Virus record (IMG/VR): IMGVR_UViG_2548876862_000021
Span: 1 to 13,456 of that record
DNA: 13,456 bases
Direction: 5' to 3' (one strand)
Source: a virus
Taxonomy: Duplodnaviria; Heunggongvirae; Uroviricota; Caudoviricetes
In this document: one piece after another, positions 2,019 through 13,212 of the stretch
Layout of the letters: every line of letters starts with the position of its first letter
Position numbering within the stretch: the stretch's first letter is position 1
Program-made: the position numbers and the translations under genes
The notes under the pieces: generated by a model
Told to the model about the DNA's origin: nothing
What the model saw: the letters and a program-made list of their open reading frames with translations, nothing else
Databases searched by the model: none

Positions 2019-3455
2019 TCAGAATCCTCCTTTCTTCTTGGACTGCGGCTCCTCGCGTTCACGGCGGCGCATTTCAGCAGACTGTTGGTCTGTGTCATAA
2101 ATAGCGCCATTTGCCTGAATGCAATACACCGTGCCGGTATTGCCATGACGATTGAGACGAAGGATTAGTTCGGTTTCACCAGGTGGAACACTGTCATCAA
2201 AAGCACCTTCACGATGGATCCCCACCCAATAATCGCAATCCTGTTCAATCTGCCCTGTATCGCGCGAGTCACTTGGTAATGGGCGTTTATTGGTTCGGCT
2301 TTCCAATGCGCGGTTAAGCTGTGTCAGAAGCACAACAACGCAATCAAGCTCTTTGGCAAGGTTCTTCAATCCTTTGGTGATCATGCCGTAAGCAAGGTCG
2401 TTGCGATCGGCCTTCTCAGCAGTCATTAGTGTCAGGTAATCGACCAGAATCATGCCAACGCATCCTTTTTCTCGCTTGATTCGACGGCTTTCGCTGACGA
2501 TTTGAGCCAGAGATAATCCCGGCGTGTCGTCGATGTAAAGCATGTCGATTTCACTCAAGCGATTGGCTGTTTCGATCGCCCTGTTGAAGTCACCATCGTA
2601 ATCACCCTGATAGCCGTCATCGGCGTCATTTGTCGCCGGAAGGTAAAAAATATTCGGGTTAACACCAGACTTCTGCCCTACCAGTTTTTCCAGTATCTGG
2701 TCACCTGGCATTTCAAGGCTGAACATCAGAGCGGGCTTTTTCTCATGCACTGCGCAATTGATTGCCATCTGGCTGTATAGCGTCGTTTTCCCCATCTTAG
2801 GGCGAGCGCCAATGACAAACAGAGAGCCTTTCACCAGACCTTTCGGTGACAGCATCCTGTCCAGCGATGGGATCCCTGTGCTCATTCCTCGTTGTTCGCC
2901 TGACGGGTCAAATCGCTTCTCAAGGTCGCTAACCCAGTCTTCCATGACCTCACCAAATGAACGAAGGCCGCGACGCGATCCGGTTTTTGCATGGTCTGTC
3001 AGTTGCGTGAAAATCGACTGAATAGCTTCGTACTTCTGTGTTGCAGTCATTCCGTTGCGGGAATAGAGCAATTCCGTCGCTTCAGTCATGCGGTTGATGG
3101 CGTAGCGTTCCATTGCGGTTTCACGAACCTGCATTGCATAGGCAATGATGTTTGCTGCGCTTGGCGTGTTCTTTGCGATCTCAGCGATATAAGCAAAACC
3201 GCCAACAGACGCCGTTAACGATTTACGCTCCAGTTCATCGAAAAGCGTCAGGCCATCTACTGGCTTTTGCTCCCGGTGCATTCTGGTTATTTCTTCGAAA
3301 AGGATTTTGTGTGGTCGACTGTAAAATGAGTCAGGCTTCAGCATCGCCAGAACCTTCTGGACGCGCTCACTGCTGTCATCATCCAGAAGCAATCCACCAA
3401 TCACCGCCTGCTCTGCCTCGATGCTATGGGGCGGCGCATAAAAATTATCGGTCAT
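2019..3455 (-). CDS. Replicative DNA helicase, DnaB family (P22 gene 12-like)
   Basis: Strong resemblance to E. coli DnaB throughout (PHSIEAEQAVIGGLLLD, Walker A GARPKMGKTT, LVDYLTLM, LTQLNRALESR). Track starts at GTG 3470; I prefer ATG 3455-3453, preceded by GAGGGTG. Overlaps the O-like stop by 11 nt. Confidence 0.9.
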   Translation of the reverse strand: MTDNFYAPPHSIEAEQAVIGGLLLDDDSSERVQKVLAMLKPDSFYSRPHKILFEEITRMHREQKPVDGLTLFDELERKSLTASVGGFAYIAEIAKNTPSAANIIAYAMQVRETAMERYAINRMTEATELLYSRNGMTATQKYEAIQSIFTQLTDHAKTGSRRGLRSFGEVMEDWVSDLEKRFDPSGEQRGMSTGIPSLDRMLSPKGLVKGSLFVIGARPKMGKTTLYSQMAINCAVHEKKPALMFSLEMPGDQILEKLVGQKSGVNPNIFYLPATNDADDGYQGDYDGDFNRAIETANRLSEIDMLYIDDTPGLSLAQIVSESRRIKREKGCVGMILVDYLTLMTAEKADRNDLAYGMITKGLKNLAKELDCVVVLLTQLNRALESRTNKRPLPSDSRDTGQIEQDCDYWVGIHREGAFDDSVPPGETELILRLNRHGNTGTVYCIQANGAIYDTDQQSAEMRRREREEPQSKKKGGF

Positions 3456-4335
3456 CGTGTTCACCCTCACGAACTTTCAGGTAGGTATTATCGTTAAGCA
3501 GGAAATCAAATCCCTTTTTGTGCCAGACGGTTCCGCGCTGATGGTTTGGGCGCTCTTCGAACATCCATCGGCAATTTTCGCCTACGTAGCTCAAATAATT
3601 TCTCCAGTCCTGCATCGTGAAACCATGCCCGTCAAGCTGGCGGGTTATCACTCCGGCTTTGCGCCAGAACGTTCGGATCTGGTTTTTACGCTTGTCATTC
3701 AGTGCGCGGATTCTTGGCGCTTCAGGAAGGATTTCGTGGTAAGCATCGACAACATCCTGACAGCTAACGGAAGGTTTTTTCTTGTCAGACTTTTTGTCTG
3801 CTGTGGCACTCTCTAATACGTCAGTATTAGAGATATTATTTATATTATTGTTTATGGACAACCGTTGGACAACCGTTGGACAATCTCCGCTGAGAGCCGC
3901 GCCATTACTGGTGTTTGCGTTGGACAACCGTTGGACAACCGTTGGACAATTTTTTGCCTGAAAATCGTCATATTTAACGATTGTAAACAGGCTAAATTTC
4001 TTCCCCATCGAGCAAATATTAAGCATACCTTTCGACTCAAAAGTCCGTAATAAGCTCCGAACTTTGTTGTCGGGGATGAATGTTTCTCTGACCAGCGACG
4101 GGCGTCCAGTTATCATCTGACCGCGATCAACAGTTATCGGACCGATATCCGTATTGACGACAGTAGATTCGTGATTAGCCTTGAGGATTAAGTGAAGCCA
4201 AAGATGTACTGCCTGAGAGTCCTTATAGAGCCTGCTGTCCATAAACTGGCGGTGTATAGAGACATACCCCATACTGGATGCCTCCTGATGTTGTACAGGG
4301 TTATGCCTGTAATCAGCTAACTTAACGACGCCCAT
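3445..4335 (-). CDS. Replication initiator, lambda O-like (iteron-binding)
   Basis: 296-aa ORF immediately upstream of the helicase; contains the ori iterons inside its coding sequence (encoded peptide repeat CPTVVQRLSN), as in lambda O; AGGAG 6 nt upstream of the ATG. Confidence 0.75.
   Translation of the reverse strand: MGVVKLADYRHNPVQHQEASSMGYVSIHRQFMDSRLYKDSQAVHLWLHLILKANHESTVVNTDIGPITVDRGQMITGRPSLVRETFIPDNKVRSLLRTFESKGMLNICSMGKKFSLFTIVKYDDFQAKNCPTVVQRLSNANTSNGAALSGDCPTVVQRLSINNNINNISNTDVLESATADKKSDKKKPSVSCQDVVDAYHEILPEAPRIRALNDKRKNQIRTFWRKAGVITRQLDGHGFTMQDWRNYLSYVGENCRWMFEERPNHQRGTVWHKKGFDFLLNDNTYLKVREGEHDDR
3813..3950. repeat. Replication origin: two clusters of three direct ~11-bp iterons (GTTGGACAACC) plus flanking AT-rich stretch
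   Basis: Seen directly: 3856-3884 GGACAACCGTTGGACAACCGTTGGACAAT and 3919-3950 CGTTGGACAACCGTTGGACAACCGTTGGACAAT; AT-rich 3813-3855 (TATTAGAGATATTATTTATATTATTGTTTAT) lies downstream in the direction of O transcription, the lambda ori arrangement. Confidence 0.7.
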
Positions 4336-4483
4336 GTTTCACTCCTGCTTTGGCTAGTCTGTAAACACCAACAAGGCGCTCTGCGAACGCCCTGTTATTT
4401 GCTGCGGCTACCACTAATCCCTCAGGTGAATCAGGGTGTCGAATCTCTTCTTTTTCCTGGTATTTCTTACGACGTTTTGTCAT
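4322..4483 (-). CDS. Hypothetical small basic protein (53 aa) between cII and O
   Basis: Hand-found ORF MTKRRKKYQEKEEIRHPDSPEGLVVAAANNRAFAERLVGVYRLAKAGVKHGRR, AGGAG 6 nt upstream of ATG 4483-4481; 3' end overlaps the O start by 14 nt. Below track threshold. Confidence 0.35.
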   Translation of the reverse strand: MTKRRKKYQEKEEIRHPDSPEGLVVAAANNRAFAERLVGVYRLAKAGVKHGRR

Positions 4484-4517
4484 AATTACTCCTGTGGATT
4501 GATCCAGTCTTTCTACA

Positions 4518-4796
4518 TCAGGCCTCGAAGAATTCGCCGTTCTTCGGGGCTTTTTCTTTTGTCAGCATTCTGGCTACTTTCTTAGCCAGTTCCGCCAACT
4601 CCTCGTCTTCAACACCCCATTCAAGAACAGCCAGAAGCATTCCCATTTTGGGGATGAAGCTATCTTTCCATCGCGAAATTTGCGATTCATTAATCCCTAA
4701 CGCGTCGGCAACCTTTCGCTGACCACGTACAGCAATTCGATTCAGGATGTTGCTTGTAATTGCATTCGCTTTCTTGCGAGTACTTGTAAGTTGCAT
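4518..4796 (-). CDS. cII: cII-like transcriptional activator
   Basis: Track ORF 4518..4883 contains MQLTSTRKKANAITSNILNRIAVRGQRKVADALGINESQISRWKDSFIPKMGMLLAVLEWGVEDEE..., aligning with lambda CII (QISRWK...MLLAVLEWGV). Start set at ATG 4796-4794 so that nutR lies outside the gene. Confidence 0.8.
   Translation of the reverse strand: MQLTSTRKKANAITSNILNRIAVRGQRKVADALGINESQISRWKDSFIPKMGMLLAVLEWGVEDEELAELAKKVARMLTKEKAPKNGEFFEA
4522..4560 (+). terminator. Intrinsic terminator on the strand antisense to the cII 3' end (oop-like)
   Basis: 11-bp stem (GCCTCGAAGAA / TTCTTCGGGGC, one G-U) with 7-nt loop, directly followed by TTTTTCTTTT. Candidate extended -10 (TGtCATAAT, 4478-4486) about 40 nt upstream. 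Confidence 0.5.
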
Positions 4797-4854
4797 ATGT
4801 AAGTATTTCCTTAACAAATAAGAAGTTATGCGCATCAAATTATGCGCGTTGTAT

Positions 4855-4898
4855 TCCCGCATTTCGGCGGGAATGATGACCATGACTGTTAAAGAGCG
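4855..4898 (-). promoter_or_regulatory. nutR-like site: boxA (CGCTCTTTAACA) followed by boxB hairpin
   Basis: Read on minus strand: boxA at 4898-4887, 14-nt spacer, boxB TCCCGC-CGAAAT-GCGGGA at 4872-4855; the boxB 18-mer is identical to the one upstream of N. Confidence 0.6.
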
Positions 4899-4904
4899 GT
4901 GTTA

Positions 4905-5101
4905 CTATTTGTTTTTCTTGTTGCTTGGGAAAGGACGAACTTCCTCTCCAATCACACTGCCATCAGGCTTTACCGTAACCATGATGTTACGGCCTGCCAG
5001 AATGGCCTTGCTGATAGCGCACTGGATTACACCAAAGTCACTGGCTGCTTTAGCCTGTCCATGGATTTTGGCGTAATCGGCAAGTGTCATTCGAATCATA
5101 T
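4905..5101 (-). CDS. cro: Cro-like repressor
   Basis: [62 protein letters not shown] aligns with lambda Cro ([22 protein letters not shown]...PFPSNKK). Track start is GTG 5105; I prefer ATG 5101-5099 with GGAGAG upstream. Confidence 0.8.
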
Positions 5102-5128
5102 GCACTCTCCGTTATTAACCATGAACAA

Positions 5129-5205: not shown

Positions 5206-5922
5206 ATGGAAAATAAAAAATCACTGACGACAGAACAGCTCGAAGACGCTAAGCGGCTTAAGGCTTTGTATGAGTCAAAAAAGAAAGAATTGGGAATAAC
5301 CCAATACTCAATCGCTGATGAACTGGGTATCACCCAAGGAGCGGTAGGGCATTATCTTAATGGCAGAAACGCGCTAAACGTTGAGGTCGCATCTGGTTTT
5401 GCACGTTTGTTGCAAGTCTCAATTGCTGATTTTAGCCAGTCAATTGCTGCCAAGGTTGCAGAACAGGCAGAAAGCCTTAAGAGCGATGCCAACGTAAGGT
5501 ATGCAGGGGAATACAGAGCAGGAAAGAGGTATCCGGTGTTAAGCAGTATCCAGGCTGGCTCGTGGTGTGAAGCATGCGAACCATACACCATTAAAGACAT
5601 AGATGTTTGGCTTGAGTCTGACGCGCATATTCAAGGTAATGCGTTCTGGCTTAAAGTGGAAGGTGATTCAATGACGGCACCGGTTGGGTTAAGCATTCCA
5701 GAGGGAACATTCGTTCTTTTCGATACCGGAAGGGAGGCGATCAACGGCAGCTTGGTCATAGCAAAACTTTCTGACTCTAACGAAGCAACATTCAAGAAGC
5801 TGATAATCGACGGCGGAAATAAATACCTCAAGGGACTTAATCCTGCATGGCCTCTCGTGCCAATCAATGGAAACTGCAAGATTATAGGCGTTGCAATTGA
5901 GACAAAACTAAGGCTGGTTTGA
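5206..5922 (+). CDS. cI: CI-type prophage repressor (HTH N-terminal domain plus S24 LexA-like autocleavage domain)
   Basis: 238 aa, collinear with lambda CI ([24 protein letters not shown] / FWLEVEGNSMTAP / FKKLIRD all matched by close variants). No Shine-Dalgarno upstream of the ATG. Confidence 0.9.
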   Translation: MENKKSLTTEQLEDAKRLKALYESKKKELGITQYSIADELGITQGAVGHYLNGRNALNVEVASGFARLLQVSIADFSQSIAAKVAEQAESLKSDANVRYAGEYRAGKRYPVLSSIQAGSWCEACEPYTIKDIDVWLESDAHIQGNAFWLKVEGDSMTAPVGLSIPEGTFVLFDTGREAINGSLVIAKLSDSNEATFKKLIIDGGNKYLKGLNPAWPLVPINGNCKIIGVAIETKLRLV

Positions 5923-5939
5923 TCACGCAAGGGGCGATT

Positions 5940-6308
5940 ATGGTTGGAACCGCTATAGCAAGCTTTTTTGGGATGTTGGCAATCTCGACAATTTACGGCT
6001 TAGCGCATGCTTTTATTGCGAAATCTCTATCAGAAAAAATAAGCCAGGCTTGGGCGCATAGATCAGCTCGTTTCATGATTCTGGTGATCATAGCAATACA
6101 AGGGATATCTGCATTTATCCTCTATGGATCAAGCTTATACCTATTGTATCAAGGCGCGACATTTACGCCTTACACCAGTGATTACGGAACTCTATACGAT
6201 GGTAGTGAAGACATCACTGTGGCTTGGATCGTCTTTGGTTTATCTATGGCCGTGTCTGTTGTAGCAGACATCATTAAGGTAATTCTCGTCTTAACCTTCG
6301 CTGACTAA
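5940..6308 (+). CDS. Small multi-pass membrane protein co-transcribed with cI (rexAB/sieB-position; candidate exclusion or abortive-infection factor)
   Basis: Track ORF 5919..6308 begins at a TTG overlapping the cI stop; ATG at 5940 has AAGGGG about 6 nt upstream. Several long hydrophobic segments consistent with transmembrane helices (AIASFFGMLAISTIYGLAHAFIA, FMILVIIAIQGISAFILYG, VAWIVFGLSMAVSVVADIIKVILVL). Confidence 0.6.
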   Translation: MVGTAIASFFGMLAISTIYGLAHAFIAKSLSEKISQAWAHRSARFMILVIIAIQGISAFILYGSSLYLLYQGATFTPYTSDYGTLYDGSEDITVAWIVFGLSMAVSVVADIIKVILVLTFAD

Positions 6309-6675: not shown

Positions 6676-6975
6676 ATGACAGTAGTCATTACATATCTGG
6701 CTGACGATAACGCCAGAAATCGCCGCAGAGCACGCAGACAGGCTCAACGTGAGCAGGCAATGCAAGAGCAGCGACTGGCGCGAAAAATTGCGCTAAAGCT
6801 CTCTGGTTGCGTCAGAGCAGATAAAGCAGCATCACTCGGAAGCCTTCGCTGCAAGAAGGCAGAAGAAGTCGAGAGTAAACAGAATCGCATTTACTACCGC
6901 AAGCCACGCAGTGAAATGGGTGTGACTTGTGTTGGTCGCCAGAAAATGAAATTAAGCAGCAAACCACTTATTTGA
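6676..6975 (+). CDS. N: N-like transcription antiterminator
   Basis: 99 aa; N-terminal arginine-rich motif (NARNRRRARRQAQREQA); C-terminus RIYYRKPRSEMGVTCVGRQKMKLSSKPLI parallels lambda N (RTWYSKPGERGITCSGRQKIKGKSIPLI); GGAGG 6 nt upstream; directly downstream of nutL. Confidence 0.75.
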   Translation: MTVVITYLADDNARNRRRARRQAQREQAMQEQRLARKIALKLSGCVRADKAASLGSLRCKKAEEVESKQNRIYYRKPRSEMGVTCVGRQKMKLSSKPLI

Positions 6976-7070: not shown

Positions 7071-7254
7071 TAAAAATCAATGGTGTGGACAATTCAAGCG
7101 ATGCAATGGATGCAAGCTGCAATCGGAATGCATGGTTAAGCCTGAAGAAATGTTTCCTGTAATGGAAGATAGGAAATATGTCGATAAATGGGCAATACGA
7201 ACGACGGCAATGATTGCCAGAGAACTTGGTGAACTGAACAACAAGGCTGCCTGA
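7054..7254 (+). CDS. Hypothetical small Cys-containing protein (66 aa)
   Basis: Track ORF with C-x5-C-x2-C-x5-C spacing; weak ribosome-binding site; followed by a hairpin plus T-run. Confidence 0.35.
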   Translation: MTTTIDKNQWCGQFKRCNGCKLQSECMVKPEEMFPVMEDRKYVDKWAIRTTAMIARELGELNNKAA

Positions 7255-7290
7255 TGGTGGCCTTTATTTTCTTATTTGAGAGGAATTAAT

Positions 7291-8552: not shown

Positions 8553-8578
8553 GCCCTCCAGTGTGAGGGCTTTTTTAT
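8553..8578 (+). terminator. Intrinsic terminator downstream of the low-GC cassette
   Basis: GCCCTC-CAGTGT-GAGGGC stem-loop immediately followed by TTTTTTAT. Confidence 0.6.
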
Positions 8579-13187: not shown

Positions 13188-13212
13188 AAGCCGCCTGATG
13201 GCGGTTTTTTAT
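13188..13212 (+). terminator. Intrinsic terminator ending the leftward-operon accessory block
   Basis: CCGCC-TGAT-GGCGG stem-loop followed by TTTTTTATT. Confidence 0.6.

What the first reader, a model, noticed from the sequence alone, without database searches (positions are those of the whole stretch)
4478..4560. Candidate oop-like antisense RNA over the cII 3' end
A strong intrinsic terminator (11-bp stem plus T-run) lies on the strand opposite cII, ending about 40 nt inside the cII 3' end, with an extended -10-like element (TGtCATAAT) roughly 40 nt upstream. That predicts a short antisense transcript of about 65-70 nt covering the cII 3' end, the geometry of lambda OOP RNA, which destabilises cII mRNA.
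Basis: partly seen in the sequence, partly recalled or inferred. Interest (0 to 1): 0.45.

Follow-up and report, generated by a model that had tools for sequence, protein, structure and literature searches.

The report
OOP antisense RNA of a lambdoid phage
This is the already-known OOP antisense RNA gene of lambda-like phages, in its short P22/BTP1 form: a small RNA made opposite the end of the lysogeny gene cII that most likely lowers cII expression.

Summary
On the + strand a 14-pair hairpin (4520-4552) with a T-run to 4560 is the strongest terminator-like site in the window (-27 kcal/mol, z about -5). It lies inside the 3' end of a bona fide cII gene (minus strand 4518-4796, Pfam Phage_CII 1.8e-42). 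TGTCATAAT sits at 4478-4486.

The interpretation also holds, by homology and not only by geometry. Window 4476-4508 matches the lambda pO -10 / oop +1 / oop 5' end at 30 of 33 bases. The curated P22 genome annotates "promoter oop" and "terminator oop" at the homologous site. A 63-nt P22 oop RNA recovered by small-RNA sequencing shares its first 30 nt with the window. Prophage BTP1, where an OOP RNA was annotated from a transcriptome, is identical to window 4497-4564.

Across 35 distinct homologues both hairpins are kept by compensatory changes: 98.4% of cells paired, and 13 of 15 terminator pairs changed on both sides. The cII C-terminal amino acids drift meanwhile.

The predicted RNA runs 4494 (or 4497) to about 4559, 63-66 nt. 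It belongs to the short P22/Sf6/BTP1 class, not lambda's 76-79-nt class.

Verdict: already known, merely unannotated in the closest records. Interest is low.

The parts
4478..4486 (+). Extended -10 element of the pO promoter (TGTCATAAT). It overlaps, on the other strand, the ATG (4481-4483) and codon 2 of the downstream 53-aa gene.
   Evidence: It is the only match in the window. Window 4476-4508 matches lambda TTTGTCATAATgACTCCTGTtGATaGATCCAGT at 30 of 33 bases. The homologous P22 site is annotated 'promoter oop'.
4494..4559 (+). Predicted OOP RNA, 63-66 nt. The start is G4494 by alignment to lambda +1 (38675), or G4497 by alignment to the 5' end of the P22 RNA-seq read. The 3' end falls in the T-run, at about 4557-4560.
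   Evidence: Covariance model R1, built from P22-type sequences only, hits window 4494-4554 on the + strand at 69.1 bits, E = 7e-14, and this is the only hit in the window. BTP1 is identical over 4497-4564.
4494..4516 (+). Small 5' hairpin of the RNA (GUGGA..GAU...GUC..UCUAC). It is complementary to the cII-orf53 intergenic mRNA.
   Evidence: It appears in the minimum-free-energy folds. Helix 1 has 99.6% of cells paired, and 2 of its 8 pairs show changes on both sides (for example G-C to A-U at columns 4/20).
4520..4552 (+). Stem-loop of the tO terminator: 14 pairs and a 5-nt loop, lying wholly inside the last 11 cII codons.
   Evidence: Searches show the stem-loop. In one search, helix 2 has 13 of 15 pairs with changes on both sides and 97.6% of cells paired.
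4551..4560 (+). T-run of the terminator (TTTTTCTTTT).
   Evidence: It is read directly from the sequence. The P22 RNA-seq read ends in the equivalent UUUUCUUU.
4518..4796 (-). cII (P22 c1 / Sf6 gene 41 type), the presumed target mRNA. Its last 40 or so nt plus the stop codon are covered by the RNA.
   Evidence: Pfam Phage_CII, E = 1.8e-42, residues 1-91 of a 91-position profile. The closest records annotate it as cII.
4322..4483 (-). A 53-aa gene (homologue of HK97 gp53 and the ES18/Sf6 small ORF) between cII and O. Its Shine-Dalgarno sequence and start codon share DNA with pO.
   Evidence: The ORF list and its translation define it. mEpX2, Sf6 and ES18 annotate a homologue at the same position.

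Best explanation
The segment is the oop gene of a lambdoid phage, from a mosaic early region resembling mEpX2 and HK620. A weak promoter that depends on an extended -10 (pO, TGTCATAAT at 4478-4486) fires on the + strand, against the pR early-right operon. Transcription starts at about G4494-G4497 and stops at the intrinsic terminator tO (4520-4560), giving a 63-66-nt RNA with a small 5' hairpin and a long terminator hairpin. The RNA is perfectly complementary to the cII mRNA, from about 40 nt inside the cII 3' end through the cII-orf53 intergenic spacer. By analogy with lambda, pairing creates a duplex that RNase III cleaves. That destabilises cII mRNA, lowers CII and biases the phage towards lytic growth. 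Firing of pO against pR may additionally damp rightward transcription into the replication genes. Shown here: the sequence features, homology to lambda and P22 oop, identity to BTP1, and conservation of structure by covariation. Taken from the literature: the homologous or identical RNA is actually made in P22 and BTP1. Inferred: the RNase III mechanism and the effect on cII in this particular phage.
For: Structure: the terminator is the strongest in the window and folds far better than shuffled sequence.

Homology to lambda: window 4476-4508 matches the lambda pO -10 / +1 / oop 5' end at 30 of 33 bases, and lambda's +1 G (38675) aligns with G4494.

Annotation: P22 record BK000583 annotates 'promoter oop' and 'terminator oop; similar to phage lambda' at the site that is 86% identical to window 4474-4565.

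Expression in relatives: P22 small-RNA sequencing yielded a 63-nt oop RNA whose first 30 nt equal window 4497-4526 (PMC13397905). OOP^BTP1 was annotated from the BTP1 transcriptome (PMC7067206), and BTP1 is identical to window 4497-4564.

Model search: a covariance model built only from P22-type sequences finds one hit in the window, 4494-4554 on the + strand, 69.1 bits, E = 7e-14.

Covariation: over 35 distinct homologues, 98.4% of cells are paired, against 31-53% when the 3' partner is slid by 1-3 columns. 15 of 23 pairs changed on both sides, and 0 of 500 shuffles reach the observed score. An independent register-based pair table shows the same result.

Coding strand: the cII tail encoded opposite the hairpin changes amino acids between alleles (KAPKNGEFFEA, KPQDCGNSFEA, KAPSCANSFEA, MAPKCSKHFEA), so the RNA structure rather than the peptide is what is kept.

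Recurrence: of 55 distinct contexts downstream of the conserved pO box in viral contigs, all but about 4 have a hairpin plus T-run 60-80 nt downstream.

Mechanism in lambda: the RNase III-dependent antisense action on cII mRNA is described in PMC3985674 and PMC5869508.
Against: No expression data exist for this window itself. The -10 motif alone is at chance frequency, there is no recognisable -35, and the consensus promoter scan did not list the site. Conservation of the -10 is confounded, because the same bases encode the Shine-Dalgarno sequence, the ATG and codon 2 of the downstream gene. The alignment used for covariation was fitted to the model, which favours the structure (caveat). The short class overlaps cII almost only through its own terminator hairpin, 33 of about 42 nt, so the pairing kinetics may differ from lambda. 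No functional study of the P22-class RNA on c1/cII was found in the papers I read.
Confidence: 0.9

Rival explanations
1. The important element is the promoter pO, not the RNA. Convergent firing of pO against pR modulates rightward transcription through the replication genes and the origin, by transcriptional interference or as a 'dual promoter' control of replication. On this view the short RNA is mostly a by-product that is terminated quickly. This rival is not exclusive of the main explanation.
For: In lambda, pO -10 mutations lower plasmid replication and raise pR read-through, while altered OOP RNA levels had little effect on copy number (PMC3985674). In the window pO sits directly upstream, in pR terms, of orf53, O with its ori iterons (3855-3950) and the helicase gene.
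Against: Interference alone does not require the 5' hairpin or a terminator stem kept by compensatory changes at 13 of 15 pairs. It also does not explain placing the terminator inside cII rather than in the spacer. In lambda the antisense effect on cII is shown experimentally.
Confidence: 0.3
2. The hairpin is only a protective terminator, or an mRNA-end structure, with no dedicated promoter. It would stop stray leftward transcription from the replication region before it enters the immunity region, or its complement would stabilise the 3' part of the cII message.
For: The -10 motif is not significant on its own and no -35 is visible. A hairpin of equal strength necessarily forms in the cII mRNA as well.
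Against: Discrete RNAs of 63 nt with 5' ends a few nt downstream of the -10 were recovered in P22 and annotated in BTP1. The distance from the -10 and +1 box to the terminator is held at 60-80 nt across dozens of mosaics. The lambda promoter at the homologous bases is experimentally defined.
Confidence: 0.05
3. The match is a chance hairpin within coding sequence and has no function.
For: Terminator-like patterns are common: 21 in the window against 13.4 expected.
Against: z is about -5 with 0 of 200 shuffles as stable. Covariation runs across 35 distinct sequences. Homology extends to a characterised RNA gene.
Confidence: 0.01

Closest known systems
Phage lambda OOP RNA (pO-tO, 77 nt, lambda 38675-38599)
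   Same: It has the same position and strand: between cII and the replication gene, antisense, overlapping the cII 3' end. The -10, the +1 and the first 15 or so nt are homologous, 30 of 33 bases identical. It also has an intrinsic terminator inside cII, and pO overlaps the Shine-Dalgarno sequence and ATG of the next rightward gene.
   Different: Lambda-class RNAs are 76-79 nt, with a larger 5' stem-loop and an unrelated terminator sequence. The P22-class model R1 does not hit lambda or HK022 at E <= 0.01. Overlap with cII is 52-55 nt in lambda (coordinates) against about 42 nt here. The gene downstream of pO is O in lambda and a 53-aa ORF here. The CTGT upstream of lambda's -10, where a LexA site has been reported, is replaced by CGACGT in the window. 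LexA control was not tested.
Salmonella phage P22 oop RNA (annotated in BK000583; 63-nt RNA by small-RNA sequencing)
   Same: It is an orthologue, 86% identical over window 4474-4565. The first 30 transcribed nt are identical, and it has the same two-hairpin architecture and length class. It is antisense to c1, the cII homologue.
   Different: The upper terminator stem differs by compensatory substitutions: G-C to A-U, A-U to C-G, and a 1x1 internal loop in P22. The -10 is TGGCATAAT rather than TGTCATAAT. The downstream gene is orf48 rather than the 53-aa ORF.
OOP^BTP1 of Salmonella prophage BTP1 (Owen et al. 2020, PMC7067206)
   Same: The transcribed sequence is identical to window 4497-4564, including the whole terminator allele. 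It was annotated as an ncRNA from transcriptome data, at the lambda-OOP position.
   Different: The promoter-proximal bases differ slightly (TGGCATAATTACCCCTGTTGATT against TGTCATAATTACTCCTGTGGATT), and the flanking genes differ. I could not retrieve the mapped transcription start coordinates.

Membership tests
OOP antisense RNA of lambdoid phages (pO-oop-tO) | Encoded between cII and the replication-initiator region, on the strand opposite pR transcription, with its 3' part overlapping the cII 3' end | tested here: met
   cII lies at 4518-4796 on the minus strand (Pfam Phage_CII). The RNA lies at 4494 to about 4559 on the + strand. Gene order is cI-cro-cII-orf53-O-helicase.
OOP antisense RNA of lambdoid phages (pO-oop-tO) | Sequence homology to the lambda pO -10 / +1 / oop 5' end | tested here: met
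   30 of 33 bases are identical between window 4476-4508 and lambda.
OOP antisense RNA of lambdoid phages (pO-oop-tO) | Rho-independent terminator (tO) ending the RNA after about 60-80 nt | tested here: met
   A 14-pair stem plus T-run at 4520-4560, z about -5. It is conserved with compensatory changes.
OOP antisense RNA of lambdoid phages (pO-oop-tO) | A discrete small transcript is actually produced | not testable with these tools
   There are no expression data for the window. The literature reports a 63-nt P22 oop read and OOP^BTP1, and BTP1 is identical to window 4497-4564.
OOP antisense RNA of lambdoid phages (pO-oop-tO) | RNase III-dependent cleavage or destabilisation of cII mRNA and reduced CII activity | not testable with these tools
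   This is established for lambda only (Krinke and Wulff, as cited). Here only the perfect cis-complementarity is shown.
P22-class (short, 60-63-nt core) OOP subfamily | Match to a covariance model built from P22, ES18, HK140, an Stx2c phage and viral contig L041: a 5' mini-hairpin plus a terminator of about 15 pairs | tested here: met
   R1 hits window 4494-4554 on the + strand over the full model length, 69.1 bits, E = 7e-14.
Lambda-class (76-79-nt) OOP subfamily | A long 5' stem-loop (GAUAGAUCCAG...CUGGAUUUGUU) and a GCUCGGUUGCCGCCGGGCG-type terminator | tested here: not met
   The window shares only the first 15 or so nt with this class, and the remainder is unrelated. It is therefore filed in the P22 class, not the lambda class.
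Rfam curated family | Score at or above the gathering threshold of an Rfam model | tested here: inconclusive
   The window gives no hit. Lambda's own oop also gives no hit, so Rfam 15 appears to have no OOP family and the null result is uninformative.

The most novel reading that the evidence does not exclude
The short P22/Sf6/BTP1-class OOP may not work like lambda OOP. Nearly all of its overlap with cII is locked in its own terminator hairpin. Its free or weakly structured part, about 4494-4519, pairs with the cII-orf53 intergenic mRNA just upstream of the orf53 Shine-Dalgarno sequence. Its main target could therefore be processing or translation of the downstream orf53-O-helicase message, that is replication timing, rather than cII. 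Together with the conserved 'boundary sequence', it could also act as a portable module at a recombination joint between cII and replication cassettes.
Probability: 0.1. Interest if true: 0.3.

Novelty: already known. Interest (0 to 1): 0.1.

Why it matters
It matters little as a discovery. OOP is a textbook antisense RNA, and its P22 and BTP1 versions are already annotated or detected. The practical value lies in annotation. The closest records (mEpX2, HK620, Sf6, ES18, IME10) do not mark oop, and Rfam has no OOP model. Pipelines therefore miss a conserved regulator of the lysis-lysogeny decision that is present in hundreds of coliphage, Shigella, Salmonella and Stx-phage genomes. The alignment made here shows two structural classes sharing one promoter/5' box, with strong covariation in the short-class structure that was tested, and would be enough to seed such a model.

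Tried and rejected
Rfam search of the whole window at gathering threshold and of 4400-4650 at E <= 1 gave only noise: ctRNA_p42d at 19 bits and sX13 at 18 bits, both far below gathering. Lambda's own oop also gave nothing, so Rfam simply lacks the family.

The sigma-70 consensus scan did not list pO, because the -35 is too weak. The bare TGNCATAAT motif is at chance frequency. Motif statistics cannot support the promoter, so homology was used instead.

A plain MAFFT alignment of 12 short-class sequences (A1) put the 3' arm of P22-type rows one column out of register. It was not used for pair counting. I replaced it with a register-based table and a covariance-model alignment.

I looked for the mapped OOP^BTP1 coordinates in the supplements of PMC7067206 and found none in the files held.

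The annotations of Sf6, ES18, mEpX2 and HK620 do not mention oop. Sf6 labels the conserved box only as 'bsq5 boundary sequence'.

I considered a bidirectional terminator and rejected it, because there is no T-run on the minus strand.

Full report
**Context.** The window is the early region of a mosaic lambdoid phage or prophage. The 4300-4900 segment is 99.5% identical to Escherichia phage mEpX2 and 97-99% identical to IME10, HK542, HK446 and Sf6. The whole window matches mEpX2, IME10, Huey and HK620 in patches of about 97% identity. The genes found, in window order, are:
- NinX (766-1167, minus) and NinB (1301-1741, minus)
- a DnaB-type helicase (2019-3470, minus)
- an O-like initiator containing ori iterons (3445-4335, minus)
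- a 53-aa ORF (4322-4483, minus)
- cII (4518-4796, minus; Pfam Phage_CII, E = 1.8e-42)
- cro (4905-5105, minus)
- a cI-type repressor (5206-5922, plus)

The window's + strand is therefore lambda's "leftward" strand, the strand on which lambda oop is transcribed.

**Checking the observation.** The terminator is real and strong.
- Position 4520-4552 forms a 14-pair stem (6 G-C pairs, 5-nt loop) followed by TTTTTCTTTT to 4560. It has the most pairs of the 21 terminator-like sites in the window.
- Folding gives -27.9 kcal/mol for 4490-4562 (z = -4.8) and -27.2 kcal/mol for 4494-4559 (z = -5.2). No shuffle out of 200 is as stable.
- The minus strand has no T-run after the complementary hairpin, so the terminator works only in the + direction.
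- TGTCATAAT is at 4478-4486, but one such match is about what chance gives (0.73 expected). No -35 is evident, and the consensus scan did not list the site.

The coordinates and geometry are confirmed. The only corrections are the stem length (14 pairs, not 11) and the fact that the -10 is not significant on its own.

**What it is.** Comparison with lambda settles the promoter question.
- Lambda reads TTTGTCATAATGACTCCTGTTGATAGATCCAGT across the pO -10, the oop +1 (G at 38675) and the oop 5' end.
- The window reads TTTGTCATAATTACTCCTGTGGATTGATCCAGT at 4476-4508, identical at 30 of 33 positions. Lambda's +1 G aligns with G4494.
- In both phages the same bases encode, on the other strand, the Shine-Dalgarno sequence and ATG of the next rightward gene: O in lambda, the 53-aa ORF here.
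- The curated P22 genome (BK000583) annotates "promoter: oop; similar to phage lambda" and "terminator: oop; similar to phage lambda" at the site that is 86% identical to window 4474-4565.

Expression evidence comes from close relatives.
- A 2026 small-RNA sequencing study of P22 infection recovered a 63-nt oop RNA, GAUUGAUCCAGUCUUUCUACAUCAGGCCUC...GAGGCUUUUCUUU (PMC13397905). Its first 30 nt are identical to window 4497-4526, and its 3' end corresponds to about 4559.
- Owen et al. annotated an OOP ncRNA in the transcriptome of prophage BTP1 (PMC7067206). I fetched BTP1 (LT714109) and found it identical to the window from 4497 to 4564, including the entire terminator allele.
- The RNA predicted here has therefore, in effect, already been observed experimentally in another phage.

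- Downstream of the box there are two architectures. One is a 76-79-nt lambda/HK022 class. The other is a 60-63-nt P22/Sf6 class, to which the window belongs. An identical 61-nt core is found in 23 of the sequences held.
- Almost every distinct context, about 51 of 55, has a hairpin plus T-run at the expected distance.
- Within the short class the terminator sequence varies, but pairing is kept. A register-based table shows G-C/A-U/U-A, A-U/C-G/G-C and similar exchanges in the upper stem.
- For a formal test I built a covariance model from five P22-type sequences only, excluding the window's allele. I then searched 71 sources.
- The window gave a single full-length hit, 4494-4554 on the + strand, 69.1 bits, E = 7e-14. 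Lambda and HK022 were not hit, which confirms that the two classes are structurally distinct.
- On the resulting alignment of 35 distinct rows, 98.4% of cells form standard pairs, against 31-53% when the 3' partner is slid by 1-3 columns. 15 of 23 pairs show changes on both sides, 13 of them among the 15 terminator pairs. The covariation score of 0.449 exceeds all 500 shuffles.
- The alignment is fitted to the model, which favours the structure. The slid controls and the independent table agree with it.
- The cII C-terminal peptide encoded on the opposite strand differs between alleles: KAPKNGEFFEA here, KPQDCGNSFEA in P22, KAPSCANSFEA in Erwinia phage 49, and MAPKCSKHFEA in a Klebsiella phage. 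Selection therefore appears to act on the RNA hairpin rather than on those residues.

**Mechanism.**
- Shown here: a homologous promoter box, a conserved two-hairpin RNA, a unidirectional terminator, and perfect complementarity to the cII mRNA from about 40 nt inside the ORF to the intergenic spacer.
- From the literature on lambda: OOP pairs with cII mRNA and triggers RNase III-dependent cleavage, which lowers CII and favours lytic growth. The cleavage sites lie just outside cII (PMC5869508; PMC3985674).
- Also from the literature: pO activity itself influences pR read-through and replication. I keep this as a non-exclusive rival.
- Inferred: the same events occur in this phage.
- A caveat specific to the short class: 33 of the roughly 42 nt that overlap cII are sequestered in the RNA's own terminator stem. 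Initial pairing probably uses the 5' part, 4494-4519, opposite the intergenic spacer.

**Comparison with the known, and novelty.** The element meets every testable defining feature of the lambdoid OOP family: position, strand, homology to pO/+1, and an intrinsic terminator within cII. It also matches the P22-class model. It does not have lambda's 77-nt architecture, so it belongs to the P22/BTP1 subclass. Rfam offers no test, because lambda's own oop gets no Rfam hit. None of the closest GenBank records (mEpX2, HK620, Sf6, ES18) annotates oop, and Sf6 marks the conserved box only as "bsq5 boundary sequence". The finding fills an annotation gap and is not a discovery.

**Verdict.** The feature is already known. 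Interest is about 0.1.

Noticed in passing
window 3844-3961: Origin-like iterons lie inside the O-like gene. There are two clusters, 3855-3884 and 3921-3950, each with three 11-bp-spaced copies of TGGACAACCGT (the last copy ends AAT). The clusters are 66 bp apart, and the second is followed by an A/T-rich stretch.
   Followed up: partly
window 3445-4335 (-): The 296-aa protein that related records call 'replication protein O' has no Pfam hit at E <= 0.001, not even Phage_rep_O. The neighbouring helicase, cII, cro and cI all hit strongly.
   Followed up: no
window 4751-4764 (+): A TTGC-N6-TTGC motif (TTGCTTGTAATTGC) lies inside the 5' end of cII. It is the expected CII-binding box of the pRE promoter, which points in the + direction towards cro and cI. 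mEpX2 annotates the same site.
   Followed up: partly
window 4521-4553 (-), cII codons for the last 11 residues: The cII C-terminal tail between '..EK' and 'FEA*' changes amino acids from allele to allele, while the antisense terminator hairpin is maintained by compensatory substitutions. RNA structure seems to constrain this stretch more than the peptide does.
   Followed up: yes
window 4476-4508, and loci L008-L180: One conserved box of about 33 bp (pO -10, +1, the first 15 or so nt of oop, and the Shine-Dalgarno sequence and ATG of the next gene) is shared by two structurally different OOP classes and by different downstream genes: O, orf48 or the 53-aa ORF. It coincides with the Sf6 'bsq5 boundary sequence' and so probably serves as a recombination joint in lambdoid mosaicism.
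   Followed up: partly
window 4478-4480, and homologous loci: Codon 2 of the gene downstream of cII is NCA (Thr, Pro or Ala) in most loci. This keeps the TG of the extended -10 on the opposite strand: TGNC precedes ATAAT in 99 of 115 distinct sequences. The sample is biased, because the first scan required TGTC.
   Followed up: partly
window 5919-6308 (+) and 6676-6975 (+): Two ORFs (129 and 99 aa) lie beyond cI in the immunity-left region and have no Pfam match. The first corresponds in position to HK620 hkaS, which is annotated 'unknown'.
   Followed up: no
window 7243-7264 (+), 8553-8570 (+), 13188-13207 (+), 1990-1966 (-): These are other strong terminator-like hairpins with T-runs. By position they probably correspond to the tL-series and tR2-type terminators annotated in HK620.
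   Followed up: no
Rfam release 15: Lambda's own oop region gets no Rfam hit, so this classic antisense RNA apparently has no curated covariance model.
   Followed up: yes
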